Assembly (NCBI GenBank): GCA_049599475.1
Contig: JBMYOQ010000025.1
Coordinates: forward strand, 1 to 47,790
Reading direction: 5' to 3'
DNA length: 47,790 nt
Source of the DNA: Opitutales bacterium
GTDB taxonomy: Bacteria > Verrucomicrobiota > Verrucomicrobiia > Opitutales > JABSRG01
In this document: positions 11,576 to 30,482 of the stretch, in pieces
Layout of the letters: the number at the start of each line of letters is the position of its first letter
Position numbering within the stretch: the stretch's first letter is position 1
Program-made: the position numbers and the translations under genes
The notes under the pieces: generated by a model
Database searches by the model: none
What the model was told of the DNA's origin: nothing
The model's input: the letters and a program-made list of their open reading frames with translations, nothing else

Positions 11576-12637
11576 ATGAAGGCCTCGATTTTTTTGATAC
11601 TCACCTGCGTTTTCACTCTTTCGCTCCCCGCTCAGACACAGCTGACCGGCACCATCGAAGGCGCTAAATATTCCATTGCTATGCCGGAAGAGCCGATTGG
11701 AAAGGTGCTCCTGTTAGCCCATGGCTACCGTCCCGAGAATTTAGGCCTCAAGGCAGATGCAGGTGCGAGCCACAATCTTTACACTGATTTGGTTGAAGAA
11801 GGCTGGATTGTCGCATCTTCAAGCTACCGGCACAATGGCTGGATCATGGAGGACGCTGCCCAGGATATGATCAACCTGCACGAACTCGTCACGGCTGCCA
11901 CCCACGGGGACCCAGGGGACGTCTACTTGATGGGCAATTCGATGGGCGGCGGCGTATCCACCTTGCTCGCCGAAATTGCTGGAGATCGCTTCAAGGGCGC
12001 ATTGGCGACTGGAGCGTATCTCTTTGAACCCATTCAAAGCGAGACCCACCGCTCCACGACGATCGGGTCTCATTTTTCCCTGCAGCCCCAAATTCCCGTT
12101 CTCTACCTTACGAACACTTCAGAACTCGAAGGGCCCGAGACCTACATCTCAAAAACAGCCTCGGCTCCTATCCAACCCGTGTTGTGGAAGGTGCACCGCG
12201 ACGGCCATGTAAATTTAAACGAGGCCGAGCTACGAGCTGGCCTGATGGCCGTCATCGAATGGGCAGAAACTGGTAAGATTGAAAAAGACAAAGACGCCAC
12301 CATCATCCTCAACCCACCCTCGACCGCAAAATTTTCTGGAGACTCCGCCGAGGGCACCCCAGTTCACCTCGTCGAAGTGTATGGCAATGCGATCAGCAGC
12401 TTCGTCCGCGCAGACATGGAGAAACTCGGGATTCAACTAGGTGACACCTTCCAGCTAACCGCCGAAGGTCAGACCGTGAATGTCCTTTTAGGGTCCAACT
12501 ACAACGACGTCCCGGTTGGTGAATGGGTGAGCTTCTGGGATGCGGATGGCTACCTACTGATCTGCCGGAATTATCGAAATGCGGTAGACTCCCTAGGGCT
12601 CAATAAGGATTCGAAGATCACTATCTCAAAGAAGTAA
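11576..12637 (+). CDS. Secreted alpha/beta hydrolase fused to SAM hydrolase/halogenase C-terminal-like domain
   Basis: Signal peptide; AHGY, GNSMGG, GH motifs; C-terminal YGNAISS..SNYNDVPVGEWVSFWDADGYLLICRNYRNAVDSLGL. Confidence 0.7.
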   Translation: MKASIFLILTCVFTLSLPAQTQLTGTIEGAKYSIAMPEEPIGKVLLLAHGYRPENLGLKADAGASHNLYTDLVEEGWIVASSSYRHNGWIMEDAAQDMINLHELVTAATHGDPGDVYLMGNSMGGGVSTLLAEIAGDRFKGALATGAYLFEPIQSETHRSTTIGSHFSLQPQIPVLYLTNTSELEGPETYISKTASAPIQPVLWKVHRDGHVNLNEAELRAGLMAVIEWAETGKIEKDKDATIILNPPSTAKFSGDSAEGTPVHLVEVYGNAISSFVRADMEKLGIQLGDTFQLTAEGQTVNVLLGSNYNDVPVGEWVSFWDADGYLLICRNYRNAVDSLGLNKDSKITISKK

Positions 12638-18400: not shown

Positions 18401-18478
18401 CGCGCCCTGTGCACAAGAGCCCAAGGCGAATGCGCTTTTAGAATGATCCGGCTCTCCTCCCCCAGCGGAGTGATCAGC

Positions 18479-18517
18479 ATATGGAAAGTTTTCAAAATGA
18501 TTAAAAGCTTTCCATAT
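18479..18517. promoter_or_regulatory. Operator-like inverted repeat
   Basis: atatggaaagtttt-N11-aaagctttccatat (13/14), about 55 bp upstream of the 18573 ATG. Confidence 0.45.
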
Positions 18518-18572
18518 ACGCCGAATCATCCCTTAACAGACGAATAACTCTCAATAACCCCGTTCTCCTATT

Positions 18573-20411
18573 ATGTTACGTGTATCCCTGTTGAAAACCG
18601 TGTTCGCGGCTTTCGTTCTCGCTCTTGTGATTCCAGAAGAGATCGCATTTGCCAAAAAATCATCGAGCTCGAAGAGTTCTAGCAGCCGAAGCAGCAGCTC
18701 CAAGAAATCGAGCTATAAATCAGTCTCTTCAAGCTGGAAGAAACCGAGCTCGTCGAGCAGCAAAAAACCGGCGGCGAAACCCAAAGCAAAGCCCAAGGCC
18801 AGCTCATCCGATTTCTTTAGCCGAAGCACGAGCACAACGGCGAAGCCGAAACCTAAACCGACGGCGAAAACGCCTTCGATGAAACCGTCCACCAAGGCGA
18901 GCCCGGCCTCCTCCAAGCCGACAGTAAAACCCGCCGTAAAACCCAAAGCGACACCAACCGAGAAGAAAACGAGTTCGGGCTTTGGAAAACCGACGACGGC
19001 TTCCTCCTCGTCCTCGAAACCAGGAGCTGCCGCAAAACCCCAACCCACAAAATTTGATCAAGCCCAGTCAAAGAAGTCAGCGAAGGCCTCCCGCGATCAA
19101 TATCTGAAAGAGAAAAATCGCTACGCATCGAGTGCAGAGACAGCTTCCACACCGACCCGCACTGAAGTCGTTCGGGTCTACGAAAGCCACCCTGTATACA
19201 GCCGCTACAGAAGCCGAGGCGTCTACATTGGATACGACGATTACTATCGCGGGCGCACGCGCTATTACAGTCGCTACAATTGGGAGCCACCCTATTACGC
19301 CTACCAATCTCAATCGCGTTTCGGTGTCTGGGATGCCTGGACCTGGTGGTACGTTCTGGAAAATTTAGAAAATCCCCGCTACCTCGCTATGGCCTATCAC
19401 CATCGCTATGATCCCGGCTATCTGGAGTGGCGTCGAGAAGCACGCCGTTTATCATTCGGCAACCCTCCATTGAGGAATCGTCTGCGCGATCTCGACCGCG
19501 CCATCGAGCGCATGGAAGGGACTCCTATGATCCCGGGATATCTCCCCGAGGGCATGGAGCCAGAAGTAGCTATGGCGGCAGATATTGCTGGTGCTCCCGA
19601 GGAGCTAGAAGGCGTAGTCCGCATGGCAACTGCGCAACCCGGCGGCAATTACTTTGTCTACGGTCAAGTGCTTCGCAGCCTGGCCCCAGAATCAATGGAC
19701 GTGGAGATTCTCCAATCAGCCGGCTCGCAAGAGAATCTTCAAAAGCTCGACAATGGCGAAGTGGATATTGCCCTGGCTCAATCAGATATTCTAGGTATCC
19801 GCACCCTCGAATCCGACACGTCCTACCCCATCCAAGCACCCCTTTGGGATGAGTTCATTCACATCATTGCAAACCAAGAGAGTGGCATTCAAAAAATACA
19901 GGACTTAGATCCTGAAAAGCACACGATATGTATCGGCGAGCCCGGATCGGGCAGTGTCGAAACTTGGCGTGGATTCGTGATGGCAGACAAAGAGGCCTAC
20001 GGAGCTATCGAAACACAGAACCTCAACATTTATGAGGCCCGCAATGCCGTATTAGAAGATCCCAACACGGTTATGCTCTACGTAGCCGGACTCGGGGCGG
20101 ACTTCATGGAGGAGACAGACCAAATTTTCGGCGACCAGCTCAGGCTCGTTTTGGTGGATATTCCAGAATTCGAATCGTTCGTGGACAATGATGGCAACCA
20201 AGTCTACACGCGAAAGCCTCTGAAGATAGCCTATCCCAAGCTTCAAAAATCCTGGGGTAGCCTTTCGAAGCTCAACAACTTGTCCGTGACCGCTGTTCTC
20301 GCGGTATCCCCCGATGCCTTTGCGAAAATGGGCGAAACTGAAGCATCCGCCTTTACCTCAACGGCCAGTGAAGCCCGCGAGCTCTTGGCGGAATATCGCG
20401 GTTCGAATTAG
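18573..20411 (+). CDS. Secreted multidomain protein: S/K/P-rich region, Tyr/Trp-rich domain, C-terminal TAXI-type solute-binding domain
   Basis: Signal peptide ending AFA; low-complexity region; FGVWDAWTWWYVL...DPGYLEWRREA; TAXI motifs ATAQPGGNYF, SAGSQENL, DIALAQSD, IGEPGSGS. Confidence 0.75.
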   Translation: MLRVSLLKTVFAAFVLALVIPEEIAFAKKSSSSKSSSSRSSSSKKSSYKSVSSSWKKPSSSSSKKPAAKPKAKPKASSSDFFSRSTSTTAKPKPKPTAKTPSMKPSTKASPASSKPTVKPAVKPKATPTEKKTSSGFGKPTTASSSSSKPGAAAKPQPTKFDQAQSKKSAKASRDQYLKEKNRYASSAETASTPTRTEVVRVYESHPVYSRYRSRGVYIGYDDYYRGRTRYYSRYNWEPPYYAYQSQSRFGVWDAWTWWYVLENLENPRYLAMAYHHRYDPGYLEWRREARRLSFGNPPLRNRLRDLDRAIERMEGTPMIPGYLPEGMEPEVAMAADIAGAPEELEGVVRMATAQPGGNYFVYGQVLRSLAPESMDVEILQSAGSQENLQKLDNGEVDIALAQSDILGIRTLESDTSYPIQAPLWDEFIHIIANQESGIQKIQDLDPEKHTICIGEPGSGSVETWRGFVMADKEAYGAIETQNLNIYEARNAVLEDPNTVMLYVAGLGADFMEETDQIFGDQLRLVLVDIPEFESFVDNDGNQVYTRKPLKIAYPKLQKSWGSLSKLNNLSVTAVLAVSPDAFAKMGETEASAFTSTASEARELLAEYRGSN

Positions 20412-20422
20412 GAAACACCGCA

Positions 20423-21064
20423 ATGATTTCGTTTTTCAAAAAGAAAGAGGAGGAACCCGTATTGCCTCTCGGCCTACGGGTGGGCGCTCCAGTAGAAATC
20501 AGCGAATTCGCCTTTATGGAAGTCGCTGTGGAGTTTGCTAAAGAGGCCTCGAGCCTGGAGTGCGTCGTCGAGCGCCTGGAGTCCTTCGACCTGGGAGAGG
20601 ACGGCGTGATGCTCTGGGCCTATCTGTCCAACTCTGAAGGAATTCTCCATGTATATGCCGATACCGAAGGCCAGATCGAGGAGCTAAGACTCTACCGAAC
20701 TGTCCACGTAGAAACGCCCTCGACTCAAGAAGAGTGGGCCTTTTGGGAAGAGGAATTGATAGGATTTATCCGTTTTCAGATGAGCGACCAAATCATGCCC
20801 GAAGCACCGATTTACGACAGGATGTGGCAAGCCGAAGGGGCCGAGCAGATTGCTGCAATGACTCTGGAAGCCCGTACGCATCCCCTCGAAAAGGATGCTC
20901 CCTTGGTCGAACACCGTGCCATGCGCTACGCCCGCCTCATCTGTGAAGAACCGGTGGAAAAAACAGAATGGCTCGACATCGTAATCTCCGAAGATGAAGA
21001 CGAGGCCTGGATCGACATTCGTATTGGCTACGATCTCAAGCAGGGAGATATCACTGTCTTGTAA
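20423..21064 (+). CDS. YjfK/DUF2491-like acidic protein
   Basis: LPLGLRVGA, P...EEW..W...IG...F, YDRMW, EHRAMRYAR, EWL...EE, IGYDL pattern recalled for DUF2491; 11 bp after the previous gene. Confidence 0.6.
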   Translation: MISFFKKKEEEPVLPLGLRVGAPVEISEFAFMEVAVEFAKEASSLECVVERLESFDLGEDGVMLWAYLSNSEGILHVYADTEGQIEELRLYRTVHVETPSTQEEWAFWEEELIGFIRFQMSDQIMPEAPIYDRMWQAEGAEQIAAMTLEARTHPLEKDAPLVEHRAMRYARLICEEPVEKTEWLDIVISEDEDEAWIDIRIGYDLKQGDITVL

Positions 21065-21120
21065 GCAAGCTCGAGGGCTACTTTGGCCGAGCTACTGAAC
21101 CCGCTTGGAAATGCGTACAT

Positions 21121-21146
21121 AAAAAAAGGCAGCCAACTGCTGCCTT
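21121..21146 (-). terminator. Intrinsic terminator after Fur-family gene (possibly bidirectional)
   Basis: aaggcagc-caact-gctgcctt with an A-run on +. Confidence 0.75.
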
Positions 21147-21170
21147 GAAATCCGTGTGTGCTATCGGAAC

Positions 21171-21581
21171 TTAGCTGACCCTTAGCGCGAAGGGTGCCGT
21201 GGTGTGGGAAAAGCTACCCTCTTCGCGATATTCTCCGTAAAGCACTACCGCATGTCCACTGACTGTGAAATTCTGAGGTAGATTTGTCACATCGAATTCA
21301 ATCGCGTCGCGTTCAATGAAAAACGCTCGGTCTGATTTTTCGCAGAGGAACAAGTATTCCTTCCGGTGCTTGGGTAGTGAGTATCGGGAAGGCTGTCCGG
21401 GAAGTTCGACTGTGATCAATTCTCCTTGGTCCACCATAGTTTTGATATTTCGATAGACCGTTGCGATTCCCAGATTGGGCACTTCGCGGCTAGCCTCGAT
21501 CAAAACTTCTTTGGGACCCAGTGGGCGATCGATGTTGTCAAACACCGTGCGGATGGCCTGTCTTTGGCGTGTATCTCTCAT
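21171..21581 (-). CDS. Fur-family transcriptional regulator (atypical)
   Basis: TRQRQAI, LGIATVYRNI winged helix; dimerisation domain lacks HHH and CxxC. Confidence 0.8.
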   Translation of the reverse strand: MRDTRQRQAIRTVFDNIDRPLGPKEVLIEASREVPNLGIATVYRNIKTMVDQGELITVELPGQPSRYSLPKHRKEYLFLCEKSDRAFFIERDAIEFDVTNLPQNFTVSGHAVVLYGEYREEGSFSHTTAPFALRVS

Positions 21582-22252: not shown

Positions 22253-25120
22253 TTATTCTGCAATAGGCGGCGTATAAATCTGCTCACCCAGATCTCCGGG
22301 CGGCACTCTTTCTTCAATCGGAACAACTGGCACTTCCTCAAGTATCTCTGGCGACGATTCCACCGGAGCTGGTGGTTCTATCGCGGGGGAGGCTTCCGAC
22401 ACTTCAGTTTCTTTTTCTGTGGTGAAAATATCTAGGGCCCAATTGGGATCGCTAATAGGTCCCCAAACTCGGATCGGAAAGGCGGAGGCGACCGGTCTAA
22501 GGATCGCAGTAAACAGGCTATACACGGGCGTCTCTTCCATATTCCCAGGAATCACATTCATCTTAAAATTCATGTGATCGTGCTTCATTTCATAGCTCCC
22601 GTCTCCACGTAATCGCACCCCGCGGCCGCTACCTTTGATGTTTTTAAACTCCAATAGGCTTCCTCGAATGTTCACTGGAGATTCGATTTCGTTCAGAGAG
22701 AGTGACCCTACCGGGAATGCCGTATTTGTCAGCGTCTCAGACAATCCGCCGAAGACATTCATTTCGTTGAGATTTCCTCCGGTCATGCGCGCTCTTCCAC
22801 TGCCTTGGAAGGAGAATCGGTCCAGCGGATCGCCCACTGCCTGAAAATTCAGATTTATACGTGTATTACCTCCGTCATCTTCCGTCTCGCTGGGAGCATT
22901 ATCCGTTTTCAGCATCGGGAAAACCGCGAAAATTCGATCGCGCCTTAGGCCTTCCATCTCAACGTCTACAGACAGTTCAGGAGCGATCTGCCCGCCCTCT
23001 TTCTCCACATAGCTCACCCTGAGCGCCCCGCTCCCAACGCCTCCACCAGCCAGGAATTCCAAACTCGGAATATCCACACCGTTGGTTCCATATTCCACTT
23101 CGATATCTAGGCTATCTACGCAAATATTGTACACTCCAATGGGGTTGTCTGCCCTCGCAGAAACACGCCCACCCTCTGCCCGAATCTTCTCCTCCGGCTT
23201 TGCACCGCTTCCATAAGTATGCCCCTCTACCCTTAGATCGATCGGACCTTCGGGATCAAAATTCGCTGTAATCTCCTGGACAACACTCGGAAATATTTTC
23301 TCCCCATTGCGCAGATCCACGCGCCCATCCAATGCGTACTCGGTGACCATCAAACCGTAGCGATCAGGAAAAAAGGTCCAGGTGAGCGATCCACGCGCAT
23401 CCCCCTCCGGACGACTAAGCTGTAGATCGAAGACTTCGGTAAATCGCGGTTTTCCCCACACCCGAGCAGATCCTTGATCGAAGCAGGCTCCTTTATAGGC
23501 CGTCTTCGAACCAAGAACTTGCCCAAAATAATGCGTCGAGCGGGGCTTCCCTATAGTGGTGCTCACATAAAAGTCCGCATGGGGGCGATGATCCTGCAAA
23601 AATGTAAACGGCTCCCACAAGTTCACCCACCAGGGCTCCATCCAGCTATTGATCGCTGGCGGTAAAATTTGGGACGAGATGTAGAGCTCCAAATCCTTGG
23701 ACCACCAATTGAAATCGAGGGATCCAGCAGCATCTCCAAGCGGGCCAGTAATCGCAAAATCATGTATCTCCGCACGATCTTTAAATAGGCTGAGCTCAGC
23801 CCAAGCATTGTCTAGCCAGACCCCTTTATAAGCTATGGGGCCTGTATCGCCTCGCAACTTGAGAGACTCCCACTCCACCGTTTCATCATAGCGAACTGCA
23901 GTATCGATGTAGAAGTTCGAGTCCTCGAGCCCCCAAACCAAATTCGCGAGCCCCGTTTGGCTGAACATCTCAACTGTTTCTAACTGGCGAATTCCCAGCC
24001 CTCGCGAACGCGCAGAGATTCGAGCTTCCTGAGAGAGAAAAGAGGCGTTCACCTGTGCACTCACCAACGCCCCATCCCAGAACACAGATACATCCACGGG
24101 CAGCTGAGTAAAATCGCCCAAGGAAGGACGCACGCTGAGCAAATCAACGGGATCCCTCAGGCCAGGCCCTTGCAAGCCCATGGCCACCCACTCCAAGCCG
24201 TCGACCATCTCATTTAGAATAATCTCACCTTCGAGTTCCTGATAAAAATCTAGATGACTCAAGGTCCAGTCGTCTTTCCAGGCCAATCCGCCGGCTCGCG
24301 CCTCCAGTGACACACGCTCGATTTGCATTTGGCTCAAGTTTACATCTGCGAAGACCTCGAAGAGCTCCACTTCGACAGCGTAGGGATTCCCTGCCTGTAT
24401 GCTTCCGGAGACATAGATATCCACCGAGTTTTCCCCCACTTGCTCACTCTTAAAACGTGCTTTCAAAAGAGGGCTAGAGACGAGGGACATGCGTTCTCGG
24501 AAGTCATAAAGGCCTCGGAGCTGTTCCTCTAAATCTCGTTTTTCAAAACTCTTTACTTCGCCGTCTCCTCGTTTCTGGCGAGGCACAGAGAATTCTCCCG
24601 CCCCCCAAATCGCGGCCGACCCAAACCTCAACAGAGCCTGTTGGATATTGTAGCTACGCCCCTCATCGCGCAGATCTAAGCGAGCCACTTCTAACAATTC
24701 TTCAGTCACTCCCGTTGGAGAATAGAGTGCAGGTAAAAACAGTTTTCCCTCGCTGAGTTTGAACTGATCCAACTCGATGCGGCCCAACATCAACAGACCG
24801 ACATCTAAATCTAGGACAATGTCCCCTAGCTCTATGACTGGGCTGCTCACACCCTTAATACCGGCCGAGAGAGACTTTACCGAAACCACTCCCCCGAAAT
24901 TCAAAAACACGCCTTCATGGGCCAACCAAAGCTCCGGATCAATCTGCGAAACGACCTCCTCGACGACTCGATTTGGTATACGCACGGTACCATCCCGGTA
25001 GAGGGAAAAAGCGATGTATCCTTGAACTATAAGAAAGAGACCTAGGGCTCCAATTAAAGCCCAACTAAGAATGCCATATACCACGCGAGCGCAGAACCCT
25101 ATGGACTTACGGAAACTCAC
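22253..25120 (-). CDS. AsmA-like (TamB/YhdP-type) protein
   Basis: Single N-terminal TM, long beta-rich body, AsmA_2-like C-terminus (GVRLRGDGSY...PIRVWGPISDPNW). Confidence 0.7.
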   Translation of the reverse strand: MSFRKSIGFCARVVYGILSWALIGALGLFLIVQGYIAFSLYRDGTVRIPNRVVEEVVSQIDPELWLAHEGVFLNFGGVVSVKSLSAGIKGVSSPVIELGDIVLDLDVGLLMLGRIELDQFKLSEGKLFLPALYSPTGVTEELLEVARLDLRDEGRSYNIQQALLRFGSAAIWGAGEFSVPRQKRGDGEVKSFEKRDLEEQLRGLYDFRERMSLVSSPLLKARFKSEQVGENSVDIYVSGSIQAGNPYAVEVELFEVFADVNLSQMQIERVSLEARAGGLAWKDDWTLSHLDFYQELEGEIILNEMVDGLEWVAMGLQGPGLRDPVDLLSVRPSLGDFTQLPVDVSVFWDGALVSAQVNASFLSQEARISARSRGLGIRQLETVEMFSQTGLANLVWGLEDSNFYIDTAVRYDETVEWESLKLRGDTGPIAYKGVWLDNAWAELSLFKDRAEIHDFAITGPLGDAAGSLDFNWWSKDLELYISSQILPPAINSWMEPWWVNLWEPFTFLQDHRPHADFYVSTTIGKPRSTHYFGQVLGSKTAYKGACFDQGSARVWGKPRFTEVFDLQLSRPEGDARGSLTWTFFPDRYGLMVTEYALDGRVDLRNGEKIFPSVVQEITANFDPEGPIDLRVEGHTYGSGAKPEEKIRAEGGRVSARADNPIGVYNICVDSLDIEVEYGTNGVDIPSLEFLAGGGVGSGALRVSYVEKEGGQIAPELSVDVEMEGLRRDRIFAVFPMLKTDNAPSETEDDGGNTRINLNFQAVGDPLDRFSFQGSGRARMTGGNLNEMNVFGGLSETLTNTAFPVGSLSLNEIESPVNIRGSLLEFKNIKGSGRGVRLRGDGSYEMKHDHMNFKMNVIPGNMEETPVYSLFTAILRPVASAFPIRVWGPISDPNWALDIFTTEKETEVSEASPAIEPPAPVESSPEILEEVPVVPIEERVPPGDLGEQIYTPPIAE

Positions 25121-27123
25121 GGCGTCGGAGTGGTTTCTCCATCCTCAAGGTTTTCATCCGAAGTAGCCGTGCTTGTGTCTGGCTCGGCCGCCGGCTCTTC
25201 GACTCCGGCTTCCTCAGGGGCAGCTTCCACATCGAATTCGACTGAAGTCGGTCGCTCCAAGAAGAGAGTGTATAGATTTTCGATCATCGCCGGCTCAACT
25301 TGGAACATCGAACCGAAGTCAGGGCTGCCTCCAGCCTGGAATGAGCCGCTCACGCGGTCCGTGAAATAAAAAGTCTGCACCAAGGTTTTGAAAGAATCTC
25401 CGTCACCCGGTAGAGCCAAAGACAAACTCACTTTGAGAGTCCACGGATAGCTTTCGGCCAGCGATTGATACCCGTCTGCCGAAAAAGAATTTTCAAGGAA
25501 CGCCGCCACTTCGAAATCCCGGAATTGACCAATCAAATCCCAAAATGGCCCCTGTTCCTCTACTAGCCAAGATTCCAGATAGGTGCCCCAGGTTTCCGTG
25601 GCTAGGTCGATCGATTCATCTCGCAAAGTCTCTACGCCGTCTCCGATTTTTTCCACCAAGACACGCTCAATCCGCACCGCCTTACCGAGACTTTGCAGCG
25701 TGCGATCCCTGTAATAAAGCGGATCCAGTATCCACAAGCGGGCCACATCGCTCGGCACCGCATATACGAAACGCTCGTCCTCAAGTTTTACGAAGAAGGC
25801 CTGACGCCCAGCGGGTAAACGGGTACGCGCCCCGACTAAGAGCGTGCGATCCGGACCCTCAGCATTTTGAAATTTGAGAGTCCAGCTCGGTTCAGTAAGC
25901 CCGTAAGTTTCTAAGTCTGACTGCGTTGGCACGTCTCTCACAAACTCCAAGGCCTCGATCCTGTCCAAGTTTTTGAGAAGTCGATCAACGACCTCGACAT
26001 CCGCCGCAATGGATACAAGCGATGCGTCTTCTCCACGATCCACGACTTGCCAAGAACCCGTTTCCAAACGCTTAAGTACCAGCCCTTCTTCTACGCTGCT
26101 TCTCGCGATTTCCAACCCGGTGAGTTTCTCCGGGTTAAACTTGAGAAAATCGCGCTCCCGAAGCTCGCTCTGCGCTTCGAGCAATTGGTCAAAAGGTGCA
26201 GCAGGAACGGTAACGACCACCGAGCGGTCTTCACGCTCGGCATAATAGGTCCGCTCGCCATTCGCGATCGGGGCTTCTCCGCCAATGATCAATGTCTCAC
26301 GGCGATCATTGCCTTCCAGGGTGATACGAATCCGCGGCTCCGCAATGGTAGACAAACGATCCTCGGGAGCCAGGGTATCTGGAAAATGCTGCGCCTCCAG
26401 GCGAGTGAGTTGTTGGAGGGTCGTGCGCACCAGCTCCATGTCGGCCTCCACCTCGATCGGGGCTTCAAAACGCCAGCCTTCCGCCTCCTTTTTGAGTCTC
26501 ACGGTGATGTCACCCGTCTCCGTAAAGCGAGTCACCAACTCGCGCACCTCAAAATCAGGGATATCAAAGATGCGACGATCACGGATGGAATTTAGATCAA
26601 CCGCCAAGGCTTTCAGCAAATCGGACGAAGTCACCAGGATCTCGCTCCCATCCGGTGAGAGCACATATAGACGATTCCCCACCTCTGTGGGTGCACCGAT
26701 TTTTAGCTCGATATCCTCCTGGTCGGGCATGCCAAAGGAGAGTTCGATGCGCGCCGGATCGAGCCCATAATCGGCAAGGGATTTACCGGCAGCTTCAATT
26801 TCAGATACCGAAAAACGAATTTCCGGCTCTAAGAATATGAGGCTAGAAAACATCCGGCTAATGCCATTGGGATTGGCCGGCCAACGAAAGGGAGTCTCGA
26901 GATACCACCGTTGGTCTTCGTAGACGAAGCTCCGCTTCAGCTCTTCTTGGCCATCCAAAAGCCGGCCGGCGATGGTCAACGAAGTGGCCGTTTCAATCTC
27001 CGGGCCAATGATGCCTGGAAGGCTCTTTTCCGGGAGCTGCGATCGCGTAGAATCGAGATAGAAGATCAATCCAAACACCGCTATGTTTGCGAAAAAGAGG
27101 AACAATGTGAGCTTGATGCGCAT
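25117..27123 (-). CDS. DUF4340 domain protein
   Basis: N-terminal TM; repeated W...P....A / LADYGLDP / YGLTEP units; start at 27123 inferred; follows GldG-like gene. Confidence 0.75.
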   Translation of the reverse strand: MRIKLTLFLFFANIAVFGLIFYLDSTRSQLPEKSLPGIIGPEIETATSLTIAGRLLDGQEELKRSFVYEDQRWYLETPFRWPANPNGISRMFSSLIFLEPEIRFSVSEIEAAGKSLADYGLDPARIELSFGMPDQEDIELKIGAPTEVGNRLYVLSPDGSEILVTSSDLLKALAVDLNSIRDRRIFDIPDFEVRELVTRFTETGDITVRLKKEAEGWRFEAPIEVEADMELVRTTLQQLTRLEAQHFPDTLAPEDRLSTIAEPRIRITLEGNDRRETLIIGGEAPIANGERTYYAEREDRSVVVTVPAAPFDQLLEAQSELRERDFLKFNPEKLTGLEIARSSVEEGLVLKRLETGSWQVVDRGEDASLVSIAADVEVVDRLLKNLDRIEALEFVRDVPTQSDLETYGLTEPSWTLKFQNAEGPDRTLLVGARTRLPAGRQAFFVKLEDERFVYAVPSDVARLWILDPLYYRDRTLQSLGKAVRIERVLVEKIGDGVETLRDESIDLATETWGTYLESWLVEEQGPFWDLIGQFRDFEVAAFLENSFSADGYQSLAESYPWTLKVSLSLALPGDGDSFKTLVQTFYFTDRVSGSFQAGGSPDFGSMFQVEPAMIENLYTLFLERPTSVEFDVEAAPEEAGVEEPAAEPDTSTATSDENLEDGETTPTP

Positions 27124-27149
27124 GTTGTGGAAGAGAATCAGGAAAAGAC

Positions 27150-28616
27150 TTAAATACGGCGTAGGAGGAGAATCGTAGCTCCGAGCAAGGCAACCGCCAG
27201 AGGCACGACCATGAGCCAAAGGAGGAGTTTCATGAGTTCGGCCTGACTCAAGGCGAGTTGAAATTCTTGAACGGGACGTGGCGGAATGGAGAGCATCTCT
27301 GCCTGGCCTATAGACCAGTTCAGAAGGTTATTAGCCATGATCTGATTGCCGTAGAATGAGAATCGGCCATTCGCCAACATGTCGGAATTGCCAAAGACCG
27401 CCAACTTACCCCCCTGCAGCGAGAGCCCGAGTTCCGAACCCACATCTCGCTCCGATACTGTGGCGATCGGGACAGGCCCTGGGATATCTATACCTGGGGA
27501 ATATTGAGGTGGGTCTTCTACCCGGTAGCTACGCTCAGCCCAGCTCTGTCCAGAAGAGCCCATAATCTGCGTGATGGTCAGACTGTCGTCCTCGGGTCTC
27601 CCGGGATTCACCCTTACGGGTCGCGACTGCCCTGCCAGCACCGAGAGCTGATTATCTATCAGAAAGGCTGTGATGGGGTGTTCTCCATCAAATTGGCGAA
27701 TGAGGGTATCTCCCCCAAAAATTTTCTGGTCCTGGCTTTGATCGATCACGATACGGTCGTCCGCCAAAATGCCCCACTCATAAAAGAGGTCATCCAGGCC
27801 ATGCGGAATGTATGCCTCCAGGAAGACGACGAGCTTACCTTGGTTGTCCAAAAAATTCCGCAGACGCTCTACCTCGATCGGACGGAAGGGTGCCTGAGGC
27901 CCGACGACCATTACCAAATCGGCATCTTCGGGCAATGCCTCTACCGTAGTCACATCGAGCCCGCGGATATCATAATTGCGCTCCAAGAGAAACTGCTTGA
28001 GCCGCGAGAGGCCGCGATTGGGGTCGATCTCGTCCACATTCATCTCCCCATGCCCCGCGAGGAAATAGACGACCGGCCGCTTATTCTGAGATACCTCCAT
28101 GACTGCCGATGTGAAGACCTGTTCGCCATTAAACCCGATGATTTCGCCATCGTCGTTTTGAGCGTAGAGATTGGTCCAATTCACCAGCTTTTTGCGGTCT
28201 TCACTGACCACCAAAATCGCGTTTTCCGTATCGAGACCATAGTTGCTTTTTAGCTCCTGAGCCCGGCTCCGCTGCTGAAACAGATCCACATACTCTACAA
28301 TGATCATTGGCTGGTCACCGCGAGAAGCGTAGTAGCTATACTCTTTCAACAGACCCTCCAAATCCTTGAAAATCATCTCATCGGCTTTCTCGGTGATCGT
28401 GACAATAATTGCCACCGGATTCTCCATGGCCCCCAGGAATGCTCGCGTCTCTGGTGCAAGCGTATAACGAGCATTCTCTGTGAGATCTCGACGTATGTAA
28501 TGAGTCGATGCCAAGAAATTCAGCCCAATGATCAGGGTAATTCCCATGATCGCGAGGAGAAAGGTATTGGCCGCTTTGATGCGCCTGACCCAGGAAAAAT
28601 TGTTAAAATTTGCCAT
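27150..28616 (-). CDS. GldG-family ABC transporter auxiliary component
   Basis: RRDLTENARYTL, GEQVFTSA, VYFLAGHGE, GP..PF, NNLLNW, terminal TM helices. Confidence 0.85.
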   Translation of the reverse strand: MANFNNFSWVRRIKAANTFLLAIMGITLIIGLNFLASTHYIRRDLTENARYTLAPETRAFLGAMENPVAIIVTITEKADEMIFKDLEGLLKEYSYYASRGDQPMIIVEYVDLFQQRSRAQELKSNYGLDTENAILVVSEDRKKLVNWTNLYAQNDDGEIIGFNGEQVFTSAVMEVSQNKRPVVYFLAGHGEMNVDEIDPNRGLSRLKQFLLERNYDIRGLDVTTVEALPEDADLVMVVGPQAPFRPIEVERLRNFLDNQGKLVVFLEAYIPHGLDDLFYEWGILADDRIVIDQSQDQKIFGGDTLIRQFDGEHPITAFLIDNQLSVLAGQSRPVRVNPGRPEDDSLTITQIMGSSGQSWAERSYRVEDPPQYSPGIDIPGPVPIATVSERDVGSELGLSLQGGKLAVFGNSDMLANGRFSFYGNQIMANNLLNWSIGQAEMLSIPPRPVQEFQLALSQAELMKLLLWLMVVPLAVALLGATILLLRRI

Positions 28617-28619
28617 CGT

Positions 28620-29390
28620 CTAGGAACGCGACTCCACGTTGATCACAGCTAAAGAGAGCAGCAATGCGCACATACTGCTATAATAGAAAATGGGACGGCT
28701 ATCGACCAAGCCCACGGAAAAGTCTTCGAGGTGCTGAGTCGCCTTGAAGTATAAAAGGGGCTCTTGAAGTAGCCCAAACATGGGACTGTCCTCCAGAGAA
28801 AGAGGCATCATTTTCATGAGATTCGCGAATGCGATCACGAGGAACAGAAGCGTAAACGTAAGCATGCCGGCCACGAGCTGAGAGCGTGTCAAACTGCTCG
28901 AGAAGATCCCCACCGCAATAAAGAGGAGCCCACTCAATGCTACGAAGGACAAACCTCCAATGATCGGGGCCCATTCGACTAAGCGCCCATCGAAGGTCGC
29001 ATAAGGTAAAAGTCGAGCAAAGATAAACGGGTAGGTAATCGTAAGTGCCCAAAGACCGCAGTAGAAGACATAGACTGCTAAAAACTTCCCAAGCACCAAG
29101 GACAGGGGCGAAGCAGGGGTCGTCAACAGAGTCGAAAGCGTTCCTAGTCGACGCTCCTCCGCTACACTGCGCATCGTGAGCAAGGGCACGACGAAGAGAG
29201 ACGGTAACCAGAATGCTCTAAAGTAGGAGGTAATCGGAAGCGTCTCAGAGGCAACGACAGTAAGGTCTCGAATCACCGTCCAAAAGATCAAAGCCATAAT
29301 CGCCAGAAACAACACACTCGCTACGTAGGACGAGGGCGTGAGCAATAGCATCCGGATCTCATGCTTAAAGATTAGCCAAGTATAACGCAT
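28620..29390 (-). CDS. ABC-2 type permease (GldF-like)
   Basis: PLLTMRSVAEERRLGTL..LLT.P, VLGKFLA, SSLTRSQLVA. Confidence 0.88.
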   Translation of the reverse strand: MRYTWLIFKHEIRMLLLTPSSYVASVLFLAIMALIFWTVIRDLTVVASETLPITSYFRAFWLPSLFVVPLLTMRSVAEERRLGTLSTLLTTPASPLSLVLGKFLAVYVFYCGLWALTITYPFIFARLLPYATFDGRLVEWAPIIGGLSFVALSGLLFIAVGIFSSSLTRSQLVAGMLTFTLLFLVIAFANLMKMMPLSLEDSPMFGLLQEPLLYFKATQHLEDFSVGLVDSRPIFYYSSMCALLLSLAVINVESRS

Positions 29391-29402
29391 ATTCAGACAA
29401 AA

Positions 29403-30482
29403 TTAGTTCTCAGAAGAATGGGCCGGCTCGACCCCCTCTTCAGTCGGTGCCAGAGGGTCGGACACCTCGTCCCAGCTGCGGCGTGTTGCCGCCATAAAGA
29501 CATCTTCCAGTGTAGGTTCCACAGGCGCTAACGAACGGACTTTCGCCGAATCCACCCCATTCAATACCTGGAGGAAATCTTCTCCATCGGGACCATTCAT
29601 TTCCACTTCAATTTCAAAGGCATGGAATTCAGAACCCGCAGATCGCTCAAGCGGCTCTACACGGGTTACTTTTGCAACGCCTTCCAAGGCCTTTTGAATT
29701 GCCTGTTTGTTTCCCGCCACTTCCATCTTGAATCTGCGAGCAGGCAAAAACTCTCGATGCAAAGATGCCGTGTCCCCCGCGGCGACGACTTCACCTTGGT
29801 TAATGATGATCACCCGGTCGCAACATGCCTCAATCTCCGGAAGGATGTGAGAGGAAAGAATCACCGTCATCTTTCCACGTAGCCCTGATATCAAGGAGCG
29901 CATAGCTTGGATCTGGTGAGGATCGAGTCCGATCGTTGGCTCGTCCATGATGACGACGTCGGGCTCTGCGAGTAGCGCATCGGCGATTCCCACACGTTGA
30001 CGGAATCCCTTCGAGAGCGCGCCGATTAACTTGCGACGCGCTTTACGCTGTAGGTCACACTGCTCCAATACGGTATTGATGCGCTCATTGCGCTTTCGCA
30101 TTGGAATACCTTTGAGCTGTGCTCGATAGCGCAAGTACTCGACCACACGCATATCCTCAGGGAGCGGATTATTCTCAGGCATATAGCCTATTCGCAATTT
30201 GGCGCGCTCGGGGTGGAGGGCAACACTGTCTCCACACAAGTAGGCTTCGCCACTGTCGGCCATCATCAGGCCTGAAAGTATCCGCATGGTCGTGCTCTTT
30301 CCCGCTCCATTTGGACCGAGAAAACCGATGATTTCGCCCGGTTGAACAGTGAAACTGATATCGCGTACAGCCACAACTGAACCATAGCGCTTGGTCAGGC
30401 TTTTCACTTCGATGCTGGGGATTGGGGAATTTTGTGAATCCACGATGTCGGGTGAGTCTCCGAGACTGGAAATAATTTTCAA
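29403..30482 (-). CDS. ABC transporter ATP-binding protein (GldA-like)
   Basis: GPNGAGKSTT, LSKGFRQRVG, MDEPTIGLDP, SSHIL; exact start uncertain. Confidence 0.93.
   Translation of the reverse strand: MKIISSLGDSPDIVDSQNSPIPSIEVKSLTKRYGSVVAVRDISFTVQPGEIIGFLGPNGAGKSTTMRILSGLMMADSGEAYLCGDSVALHPERAKLRIGYMPENNPLPEDMRVVEYLRYRAQLKGIPMRKRNERINTVLEQCDLQRKARRKLIGALSKGFRQRVGIADALLAEPDVVIMDEPTIGLDPHQIQAMRSLISGLRGKMTVILSSHILPEIEACCDRVIIINQGEVVAAGDTASLHREFLPARRFKMEVAGNKQAIQKALEGVAKVTRVEPLERSAGSEFHAFEIEVEMNGPDGEDFLQVLNGVDSAKVRSLAPVEPTLEDVFMAATRRSWDEVSDPLAPTEEGVEPAHSSEN

What the first reader, a model, noticed from the sequence alone, without database searches (positions are those of the whole stretch)
18573..21064. 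Candidate undescribed envelope module: TAXI-domain fusion protein plus YjfK/DUF2491-like partner
Seen: a 612-aa exported protein with a long basic S/K/P-rich disordered region, a Tyr/Arg-rich stretch, a Trp-rich helical domain (FGVWDAWTWWYVL...DPGYLEWRREA...LRDLD) and a TAXI-type binding domain. It is 11 bp from a very acidic DUF2491-like gene, and no TRAP DctM/Q permease is nearby. Known: E. coli yjfK sits in the yjfIJKLMC cluster with a PspA homologue. Inference: the binding domain is repurposed as a sensor in a Psp-like membrane-stress or phage-response system rather than for uptake.
Basis: partly seen in the sequence, partly recalled or inferred. Interest (0 to 1): 0.72.

Follow-up and report, generated by a model that had tools for sequence, protein, structure and literature searches.

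The report
PspA-cassette sensor pair, PspA missing
Two real genes, for a likely exported protein with a predicted glutamate-type binding pocket and its DUF2491 partner, are two of the three genes of a cassette found in several bacterial phyla and some phages whose third gene is a likely distant PspA membrane-repair protein; no such third gene was found in this genome, so the pair would have to signal to another PspA or work alone.

Summary
Observation confirmed: a 612-aa protein (signal-like N-terminus, basic disordered region, an unnamed Tyr/Trp-rich helical domain, TAXI domain) lies 11 bp before a DUF2491 gene. No TAXI-type permease or GltS was found in the 96.6%-complete genome, and no TAXI permease in 156 related loci.

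In homologues the pair belongs to a trio: DUF2491 in 78 and a ~255-aa coiled-coil gene in 70 of 82 loci, with gene order shuffled elsewhere. That protein misses the Pfam PspA model but best resembles PspA/Vipp1 by structure and holds the YjfJ slot in yjf-type operons. In 21 of 153 top homologues the Tyr/Trp domain is fused through one membrane helix to DUF2491. The TAXI domain keeps four glutamate-contact residues of VcGluP.

Here the pair is an intact, host-adapted indel against a same-genus genome; the PspA-like gene was not found.

Verdict: undescribed variant of yjfIJKLMC-type PspA operons, in truncated form. Sensing is inferred, not shown. This scan noted the full cassette before on other DNA (five findings).

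The parts
18479..18517 (.). Perfect 10-bp inverted repeat with a 19-bp spacer, 55 bp upstream of gene A; possible operator (inferred)
   Evidence: 0 of 300 shuffles of 18402-18572 reach a 10-bp arm; no second copy in the genome at up to 3 mismatches. No + strand sigma-70 consensus was called.
18573..20411 (+). Gene A, 612 aa: predicted exported protein, YW domain plus TAXI domain
18573..18653 (+). Predicted Sec signal peptide (aa 1-27); an uncleaved anchor is not excluded
   Evidence: KD19 2.2 and A-x-A motif; 54 of 56 near-full-length TAXI-type homologues have a hydrophobic N-terminus, 1 of 56 a lipobox-like motif
18654..19052 (+). Basic S/K/P low-complexity region (aa 28-160), likely disordered
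   Evidence: net +30; homologues are also basic and Ser-rich, median +8 to +15 per 100 aa
19053..19607 (+). Unnamed Tyr/Trp-rich helical 'YW' domain (aa ~161-345), the family-defining part
   Evidence: 421 representatives at E<=1e-3; no Pfam family; AlphaFold2 model pLDDT 91.6, pTM 0.86
19608..20408 (+). Divergent TAXI-type binding domain (aa 346-612) with a glutamate-type pocket: Y360, S385, Q403, E427
   Evidence: residue roles from passages of PMC11574862
20423..21064 (+). Gene B, 213 aa: acidic DUF2491/YjfK-family protein, no membrane helix, likely cytoplasmic
   Evidence: PF10679 E 1.6e-17; max KD19 1.1; the only DUF2491 match in the genome
21126..21146 (-). Terminator-like hairpin between gene B and the converging fur-like gene; no room for a third gene
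18402..21171 (.). Stretch without counterpart in same-genus genome G001, where sdhB and fur lie 300 bp apart

Best explanation
The two genes are the likely outer-face input and the likely cytoplasmic adaptor of a three-gene, yjf-type PspA membrane-maintenance cassette, present here without its PspA-like third gene. Shown: the trio (YW protein, DUF2491, ~255-aa coiled coil) is conserved across phyla, and YW and DUF2491 are often one protein with a membrane helix between them. Inferred: protein A is exported, held near the inner membrane by its basic tail and aromatic domain, and binds an amino acid, most likely glutamate or glutamine, in its TAXI pocket as a cue of leakage or osmotic state rather than for uptake. 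Inferred: DUF2491 on the inner face positions or triggers the PspA-like polymer. How TAXI forms, which lack the membrane helix, pass a signal inward is unknown; an uncleaved N-terminal anchor, DUF350 or a K+ channel are candidates. In this genome the pair most likely feeds the resident YjfJ-type PspA/DUF350 operon on contig C16 in trans (inferred, untested).
For: Neighbourhood: of 82 loci (best 80 of 184 GTDB matches plus 2 viral), 62 are YW+TAXI, 13 YW+membrane helix, 6 YW+helix+DUF2491, 1 cut; DUF2491 in 78, the coiled-coil gene in 70. Second set: 34 of 74 metagenome loci have >=2.2 kb downstream; DUF2491 in 33, coiled coil in 27; the order is permuted in 13 of the 74. Fusion: 21 of 153 top homologues are YW-helix-DUF2491, 21 of 21 Pfam-confirmed, more K/R after the helix than before in 19 of 21. 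Co-occurrence: in 401 genomes of G410's class the coiled coil is in 15 and all 9 strong YW hits fall among them; where unlinked it is elsewhere in 8 of 9 genomes. PspA likeness: Atlas clusters auto-named PspA/IM30 at 0.98, a PF04012 cluster at 0.91; Foldseek top 10 rows all Vipp1/PspA, E 4e-3 to 5.5e-2; top VIA row E. coli PspA 4whe, Z 11.6, rmsd 3.2, 131 aligned; two DUF350-coiled coil-DUF1190-glutathionylspermidine synthase operons. Pocket: Y360 64/64, S385 49 S+13 T, Q403 61/64, E427 61/64, against 78% and 54% for the Y and Q positions in general TAXIs (PMC11574862). No TAXI permease in 82 or 74 loci, while 13 of 14 genuine permeases have their own binding protein next door. Both window genes are intact with host-typical codon use, percentiles 68 and 77.
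Against: The third gene was not found in this genome by profile or tblastn, six frames included. Its PspA identity is not proven: Pfam PF04012 missed 12 of 12 tested, NCBIfam gave only generic coiled-coil families, a PDB profile search gave no PspA, hhalign probability was 6%, and the VIA top row is tied within 1 Z with unrelated coiled coils. TAXI forms have no membrane helix after the YW domain, so no path across the membrane is shown. Protein B is the most divergent of 52 aligned DUF2491s (about 21 of 34 conserved columns, median 0.97 in a set rich in close kin). The loci are biased to the query and include many near relatives. No function of any member has been measured; the trans link to the C16 operon has no direct evidence.
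Confidence: 0.6

Rival explanations
1. The pair is a relic: after loss of the PspA-like gene it no longer works as a system and is drifting.
For: Third gene not found; protein B is the most divergent DUF2491 in alignment A5; long branch to the clade of protein A; not found in 400 other genomes of the order with this query.
Against: Both frames are intact and host-adapted; protein A keeps 38 of 41 family-conserved columns; sister proteins at 71-73% (A) and 60% (B) exist, and A- and B-type records share contig lengths (2776 and 8923 bases), which suggests the pair persists in a sister lineage.
Confidence: 0.12
2. Protein A is a scavenging binding protein that hands glutamate to an unlinked transporter (TRAP, GltS or other); the PspA link is incidental.
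For: Intact glutamate-type pocket; TAXI proteins with extra domains can serve non-TRAP carriers such as GltS (PMC12344293, passages); 18 of 50 host genomes hold a TAXI permease over cut-off.
Against: 32 of those 50 assemblies, and this genome, show none over cut-off; no GltS found here; 13 of 14 permeases examined have their own binding protein; the 12 canonical TAXIs in my tree form a separate branch, SH-aLRT 100; many family members carry a membrane helix instead of TAXI yet keep the same neighbours.
Confidence: 0.1
3. The module is an ion-homeostasis unit: the TAXI protein is a detached ligand-binding head that gates a K+ channel, with PspA as support.
For: An ion channel follows the trio in Gemmatimonadota/Latescibacterota loci (22 loci with a pore motif, mostly near kin); both phage loci have a K+ or GluR0-like channel upstream; published yjf operons also include a K+ channel (PMC11237479).
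Against: Most loci, and this one, have no adjacent channel.
Confidence: 0.1
4. It is a phage-conflict system (host defence, or phage-borne protection of the infected cell).
For: Patchy, mobile distribution; the complete trio on two phage contigs; related orphan TAXI genes in cultured phages; a 2026 preprint reports pspA in huge phages (passages).
Against: No PADLOC match for A, B or YW proteins; flanks here are housekeeping genes, not a defence island; no effector domain was recognised.
Confidence: 0.08

Closest known systems
yjfIJKLMC-type PspA operons (E. coli YjfI-YjfJ-YjfK-YjfL-YjfM-YjfC; 'third group' of Ravi et al. 2024, PMC11237479; section 19, passages and part of the supplement read)
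   Same: DUF2491 next to a PspA-like gene; optional DUF350 and K+ channel; an extracytoplasmic partner; the same PspA-like clade also occurs in DUF350-DUF1190-GSP synthase operons. yjfIJKL is up-regulated in heat-evolved E. coli (PMC12492005, passages).
   Different: No YjfI/CesT, DUF1190 or GSP synthase recurs beside the YW cassette; an unnamed YW domain with a swappable tail (TAXI, membrane helix, or helix plus DUF2491) takes the outer position; the PspA-like protein escapes PF04012; at this locus it is missing.
TAXI-TRAP binding proteins (VcGluP 8S4J, TtGluBP 1US4; PMC11574862, passages read)
   Same: Best sequence matches among solved structures; four glutamate-contact positions conserved.
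   Different: Under the TIGR02122 cut-off; C-terminal part of a 612-aa protein; no fused DctQM permease beside it; separate branch from the canonical TAXIs sampled.
TAXI-GltS system, Bordetella BP0403 (PMC12344293, passages read)
   Same: An elongated glutamate-binding TAXI protein with extra domains and no TRAP permease.
   Different: BP0403 is coupled to gltS; no GltS was found in this genome and no transporter gene recurs next to the cassette in the gene maps.
PspA/Snf7 operons with periplasmic binding (PBPB) proteins (Ravi et al. 2024)
   Same: A solute-binding protein encoded with PspA-family genes.
   Different: Those contexts hold Snf7 and in longer forms ABC ATPase, permease and OmpA domains; no DUF2491 or TAXI is listed with them in the text and the one supplement file searched.

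Membership tests
TAXI-TRAP transporter | TAXI-type binding-protein domain | tested here: met
   PF16868 over cut-off; TAXI structures are the only PDB matches; TIGR02122 64 bits, under 84, so divergent
TAXI-TRAP transporter | Cognate fused DctQM permease in the operon | tested here: not met
   None over cut-off in this genome; none in 82 and 74 loci; two loci show a classic DctM fragment about 8 kb away
TAXI-TRAP transporter | Ligand binding and transport | not testable with these tools
   Pocket residues conserved; binding not measured
TAXI-GltS | Adjacent or fused gltS | tested here: not met
   PF03616 not found in the 96.6%-complete genome, control rang in 2 of 14
yjfIJKLMC-type PspA operon | DUF2491 (YjfK) | tested here: met
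yjfIJKLMC-type PspA operon | PspA-family gene in the operon | tested here: not met
   At this locus none; two unlinked PF04012 genes lie on C2 and C16
yjfIJKLMC-type PspA operon | CesT/YjfI, DUF350, DUF1190 and GSP synthase in the operon | tested here: not met
   None at this locus; DUF350 occurs in the fusion variant of homologues
PspA/Vipp1/ESCRT-III (for the third gene of homologous loci) | Sequence match to PF04012 | tested here: not met
   0 of 12 proteins; hhalign E 0.006, probability 6%, N-terminal helix and DP motif in register
PspA/Vipp1/ESCRT-III (for the third gene of homologous loci) | ESCRT-III-type long helical hairpin plus short terminal helices | tested here: inconclusive
   Model pLDDT 75.9 with that helix layout; top Foldseek and VIA rows are PspA/Vipp1 but weak or tied; Atlas agrees
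PspA/Vipp1/ESCRT-III (for the third gene of homologous loci) | Polymer formation and membrane binding | not testable with these tools
   Needs purified protein and electron microscopy
Catalogued anti-phage defence system | Match to PADLOC models | tested here: not met
   No hit for A, B or YW proteins; only weak coiled-coil hits for the third gene

The most novel reading that the evidence does not exclude
A ligand-gated input to a bacterial ESCRT-III: a periplasmic receptor with a new fold senses glutamate outside the inner membrane and, through DUF2491, switches on a separate PspA clade invisible to Pfam; phages carry it, and in this genome the sensor arm has been re-wired to the host's own YjfJ-type PspA.
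Probability: 0.22. Interest if true: 0.82.

Novelty: new variant of a known kind. Interest (0 to 1): 0.52.

Why it matters
How PspA homologues that lack PspBC/PspF partners are triggered is open. This cassette supplies testable parts: a binding pocket with named residues and a candidate ligand, natural fusions that fix the topology of DUF2491 (YjfK, uncharacterised even in E. coli), a confidently modelled domain without a structural match, and cultured hosts (Azospirillum, Bosea) that carry the fusion form. It also flags a PspA-like clade that Pfam-based surveys would miss. This window is a truncated example, so it is less suited as the model locus but is a natural test of whether the pair can act without its own PspA.

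Tried and rejected
Complex prediction of the PspA-like hairpin (aa 14-180) with DUF2491, both from L019: score 0.29, mark 0.32, verdict 'no answer'; not used as evidence. YW-domain fold searches: no Foldseek match at E<=1e-3, best VIA Z 4.6; a missing match does not prove a new fold. The Atlas gave no result for the YW domain. DUF2491 versus DUF4178 homology: no signal, E 0.46, like the reversed control, on a DUF4178 alignment of only 2 rows. My script label 'PspA' for the third gene was an assumption, then tested. The YW tree has only 117 columns: TAXI and membrane-helix tails interleave (17 and 20 changes) but well-supported branches force only 2, so repeated swapping is not shown. Exact-peptide scans with the window protein found nothing in viral and metagenome contigs. 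No RNA holder listed. The weak TAXI-profile hit on C99 reads as a PstS-like gene in a phosphate operon. The third gene had no match in cultured phages. It was also not found in 401 genomes of the window's order, a search without an internal positive; the same alignment rang. G717 (YW hit E 3.4e-4, no third gene) was left out of the 9 strong hits and not examined.

Full report
OBSERVATION. The window holds ORFs 18573-20411 (612 aa) and 20423-21064 (213 aa) on the + strand, 11 bp apart, between sdhB and a converging fur-like gene. Protein A has a hydrophobic N-terminus with an A-x-A motif, a basic S/K/P region (aa 28-160, net +30), a Tyr/Arg stretch, a Trp-rich helical part and an acidic C-terminal domain. 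That domain matches PF16868 over cut-off and TIGR02122 under cut-off. Protein B is DUF2491. Genome-wide there is one TAXI-like match (this gene), one DUF2491, one sub-cut-off TRAP permease in a classic DctPQM-like operon on C60 and no GltS match; the assembly is 96.6% complete. One contig of a run that may be the source spans the region unchanged.

THE FAMILY-DEFINING DOMAIN. Searching aa 155-351 against 50%-identity representatives gave 421 proteins at E<=1e-3. I sorted the best 150 plus three close sequences: 68 carry TAXI, 21 carry a membrane helix plus a long tail, 42 a membrane helix with a short tail, 22 are short or other. All 21 long tails are DUF2491, and 19 of 21 have more K/R after the helix than before, which predicts the Tyr/Trp ('YW') domain outside and DUF2491 inside. 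So the window's two genes are elsewhere one protein. The YW domain has no Pfam family and models confidently (pLDDT 91.6, pTM 0.86).

NEIGHBOURHOODS. A GTDB scan gave 184 matches, of which the best 80 were kept (Desulfobacterota-type deltaproteobacteria, Alphaproteobacteria, Nitrospirota, Gemmatimonadota/Latescibacterota and others, many close kin), plus two viral contigs. Of these 82 loci, 78 have DUF2491 and 70 a ~255-aa coiled-coil gene; four of the 12 without it end at a contig edge. In 8 of 9 genomes tested where it was not adjacent it lies elsewhere. In 74 metagenome loci the order is permuted in 13, and among the 34 with >=2.2 kb downstream 33 have DUF2491 and 27 the coiled coil. In 401 genomes of G410's class (Alphaproteobacteria by the record title) the coiled coil occurs in 15 and all 9 strong YW hits are among them, 7 adjacent; a tenth weak hit was set aside, and the two queries differ in sensitivity. 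Fusion loci add DUF350; some lineages and both phages add an ion channel. A profile of 14 genuine TAXI permeases found none in the 82 or the 74 loci; two loci have a classic DctM fragment about 8 kb off; 13 of the 14 permeases have their own binding protein beside them. 18 of 50 host genomes (50 of the 60 GTDB TAXI loci) hold a TAXI permease over cut-off somewhere.

IS THE THIRD GENE PspA? Against: PF04012 missed 12 of 12, NCBIfam and PDB profile searches gave only generic coiled coils, hhalign gave probability 6%. For: the Atlas groups it with clusters auto-named PspA/IM30 at 0.98 and a PF04012 cluster at 0.91; its model retrieves Vipp1/PspA in all top 10 Foldseek rows, though at E 4e-3 or weaker, and E. 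coli PspA as top VIA row, Z 11.6, rmsd 3.2, 131 aligned, tied with other coiled coils; and in two genomes it sits in DUF350-X-DUF1190-glutathionylspermidine synthase operons, the kind of operon that holds YjfJ in the published third group. I judge it a likely divergent PspA, not a proven one.

THE POCKET. Solved TAXI proteins are the only PDB matches. Passages of PMC11574862 name Y45, S75, Q93, E125, Y200 and M201 as glutamate contacts of VcGluP (8S4J), with Y45 and Q93 critical and present in 78% and 54% of TAXIs. The aligned positions here are Y360, S385, Q403 and E427, kept in 64, 62 (S/T), 61 and 61 of 64 representatives; the Y200 position is variable. The domain is therefore under selection to bind an amino-acid-like ligand, likely glutamate or glutamine (inference). 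In a quick tree the 12 canonical TAXIs form one branch apart from the 64 fused and 3 phage ones.

THIS LOCUS. The third gene was not found in the genome. The YW domain was not found in 400 other genomes of the order. In same-genus G001, sdhB and fur are 300 bp apart and homology breaks at window 18401 and resumes by 21172: the pair is an insertion here or a clean deletion there, and its rarity in the order favours insertion. GC and codon use are host-typical, and a unique 10-bp inverted repeat lies upstream. Sister proteins at 71-73% and 60% identity share contig lengths; their DNA could not be fetched, so whether they also lack the third gene is open. Protein A keeps 38 of 41 conserved columns; protein B is the most divergent of 52. 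The genome has two unlinked PspAs: a classic one beside a PspF-like and a PspC-like gene on C2 (read from ORFs) and a YjfJ-type one with DUF4178, DUF350, spermidine synthase, a CesT-like gene and SAM decarboxylase on C16.

MECHANISM. Best reading (0.6): outer-face ligand-binding input plus cytoplasmic adaptor for a PspA-like membrane-maintenance polymer, here without its own polymer and likely feeding the C16 system. The conservation, fusion and pocket are shown; export, ligand, signalling route and the trans link are inferred. Rivals: relic (0.12), uptake through an unlinked carrier as in TAXI-GltS (0.10; PMC12344293), channel gating (0.10), phage conflict (0.08; no PADLOC hit).

LITERATURE. 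Six searches listed no paper whose title or abstract describes this cassette. DUF2491 appeared only in Ravi et al. 2024; I read its section 19, passages, and part 2 of 3 of its supplement, where TAXI and NMT1 do not occur; its web tables were not seen. I read passages of PMC12492005 (yjfIJKL up in heat-evolved E. coli) and of bioRxiv 10.64898/2026.10.24.761521 (phage pspA; no TAXI or DUF2491 in the main text; its supplementary neighbour tables were not seen and may bear on novelty). Subscription journals are mostly outside the library. This scan noted the full trio before on other genomes, after my reading was set; these are unchecked notes, not support.

VERDICT. A real, undescribed variant of yjf-type PspA operons, seen here in a two-gene form. 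Not a TRAP transporter, and not a member of the canonical yjf operon by gene content. Interest 0.52.

Noticed in passing
G000:C16:38947-48207 (L108): NfeD-NfeD-FloA genes run into a DUF4178-DUF350-unknown-spermidine synthase-CesT-like-PspA-SAM decarboxylase operon (Ravi et al. second group); a possible trans partner of the pair.
   Followed up: partly
L116:3998-4900, L117:3923-4804, L118:3917-4807: Cultured or annotated phages (EBPR siphovirus 2, Bradyrhizobium phage BDU-MI-1, Rhizobium phage RHph_I1_18; weaker hits in Klebsiella/Serratia jumbo phages) carry stand-alone TAXI-like genes close to this clade (phrog_6856 matches protein A at E 2e-33) with no permease annotated nearby.
   Followed up: partly
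L007:6469-10616 and L006:1567-7898: Two phage contigs carry the full trio; L007 has a GluR0-like ligand-gated channel directly upstream, L006 a K+ channel with a TrkA-type domain about 2 kb upstream.
   Followed up: partly
L143:4778-7655, L148:4712-8219; L144, L146, L147: The Pfam-invisible PspA-like clade also occurs in DUF350-DUF1190-GSP synthase operons and as a stand-alone gene in Alphaproteobacteria.
   Followed up: partly
L021, L030, L058, L069: In Rhodospirillales TAXI forms the PspA-like gene is unlinked and a PAS histidine kinase follows DUF2491; may be simple synteny among kin.
   Followed up: partly
window 11576-12637: Alpha/beta-hydrolase-like protein with a C-terminal SAM hydroxide adenosyltransferase C domain (PF20257 over cut-off), an unusual pairing.
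   Followed up: no
window 22253-30482 (- strand): Gliding-motility-type ABC set by ORF reading (ATPase, permease, GldG-like, DUF4340) followed by a 955-aa protein with a weak YhdP match.
   Followed up: no
L023:10334-11272: A transposase-like ORF (by reading, untested) interrupts the cassette between the TAXI gene and DUF2491 in one Desulfovibrionaceae genome.
   Followed up: no
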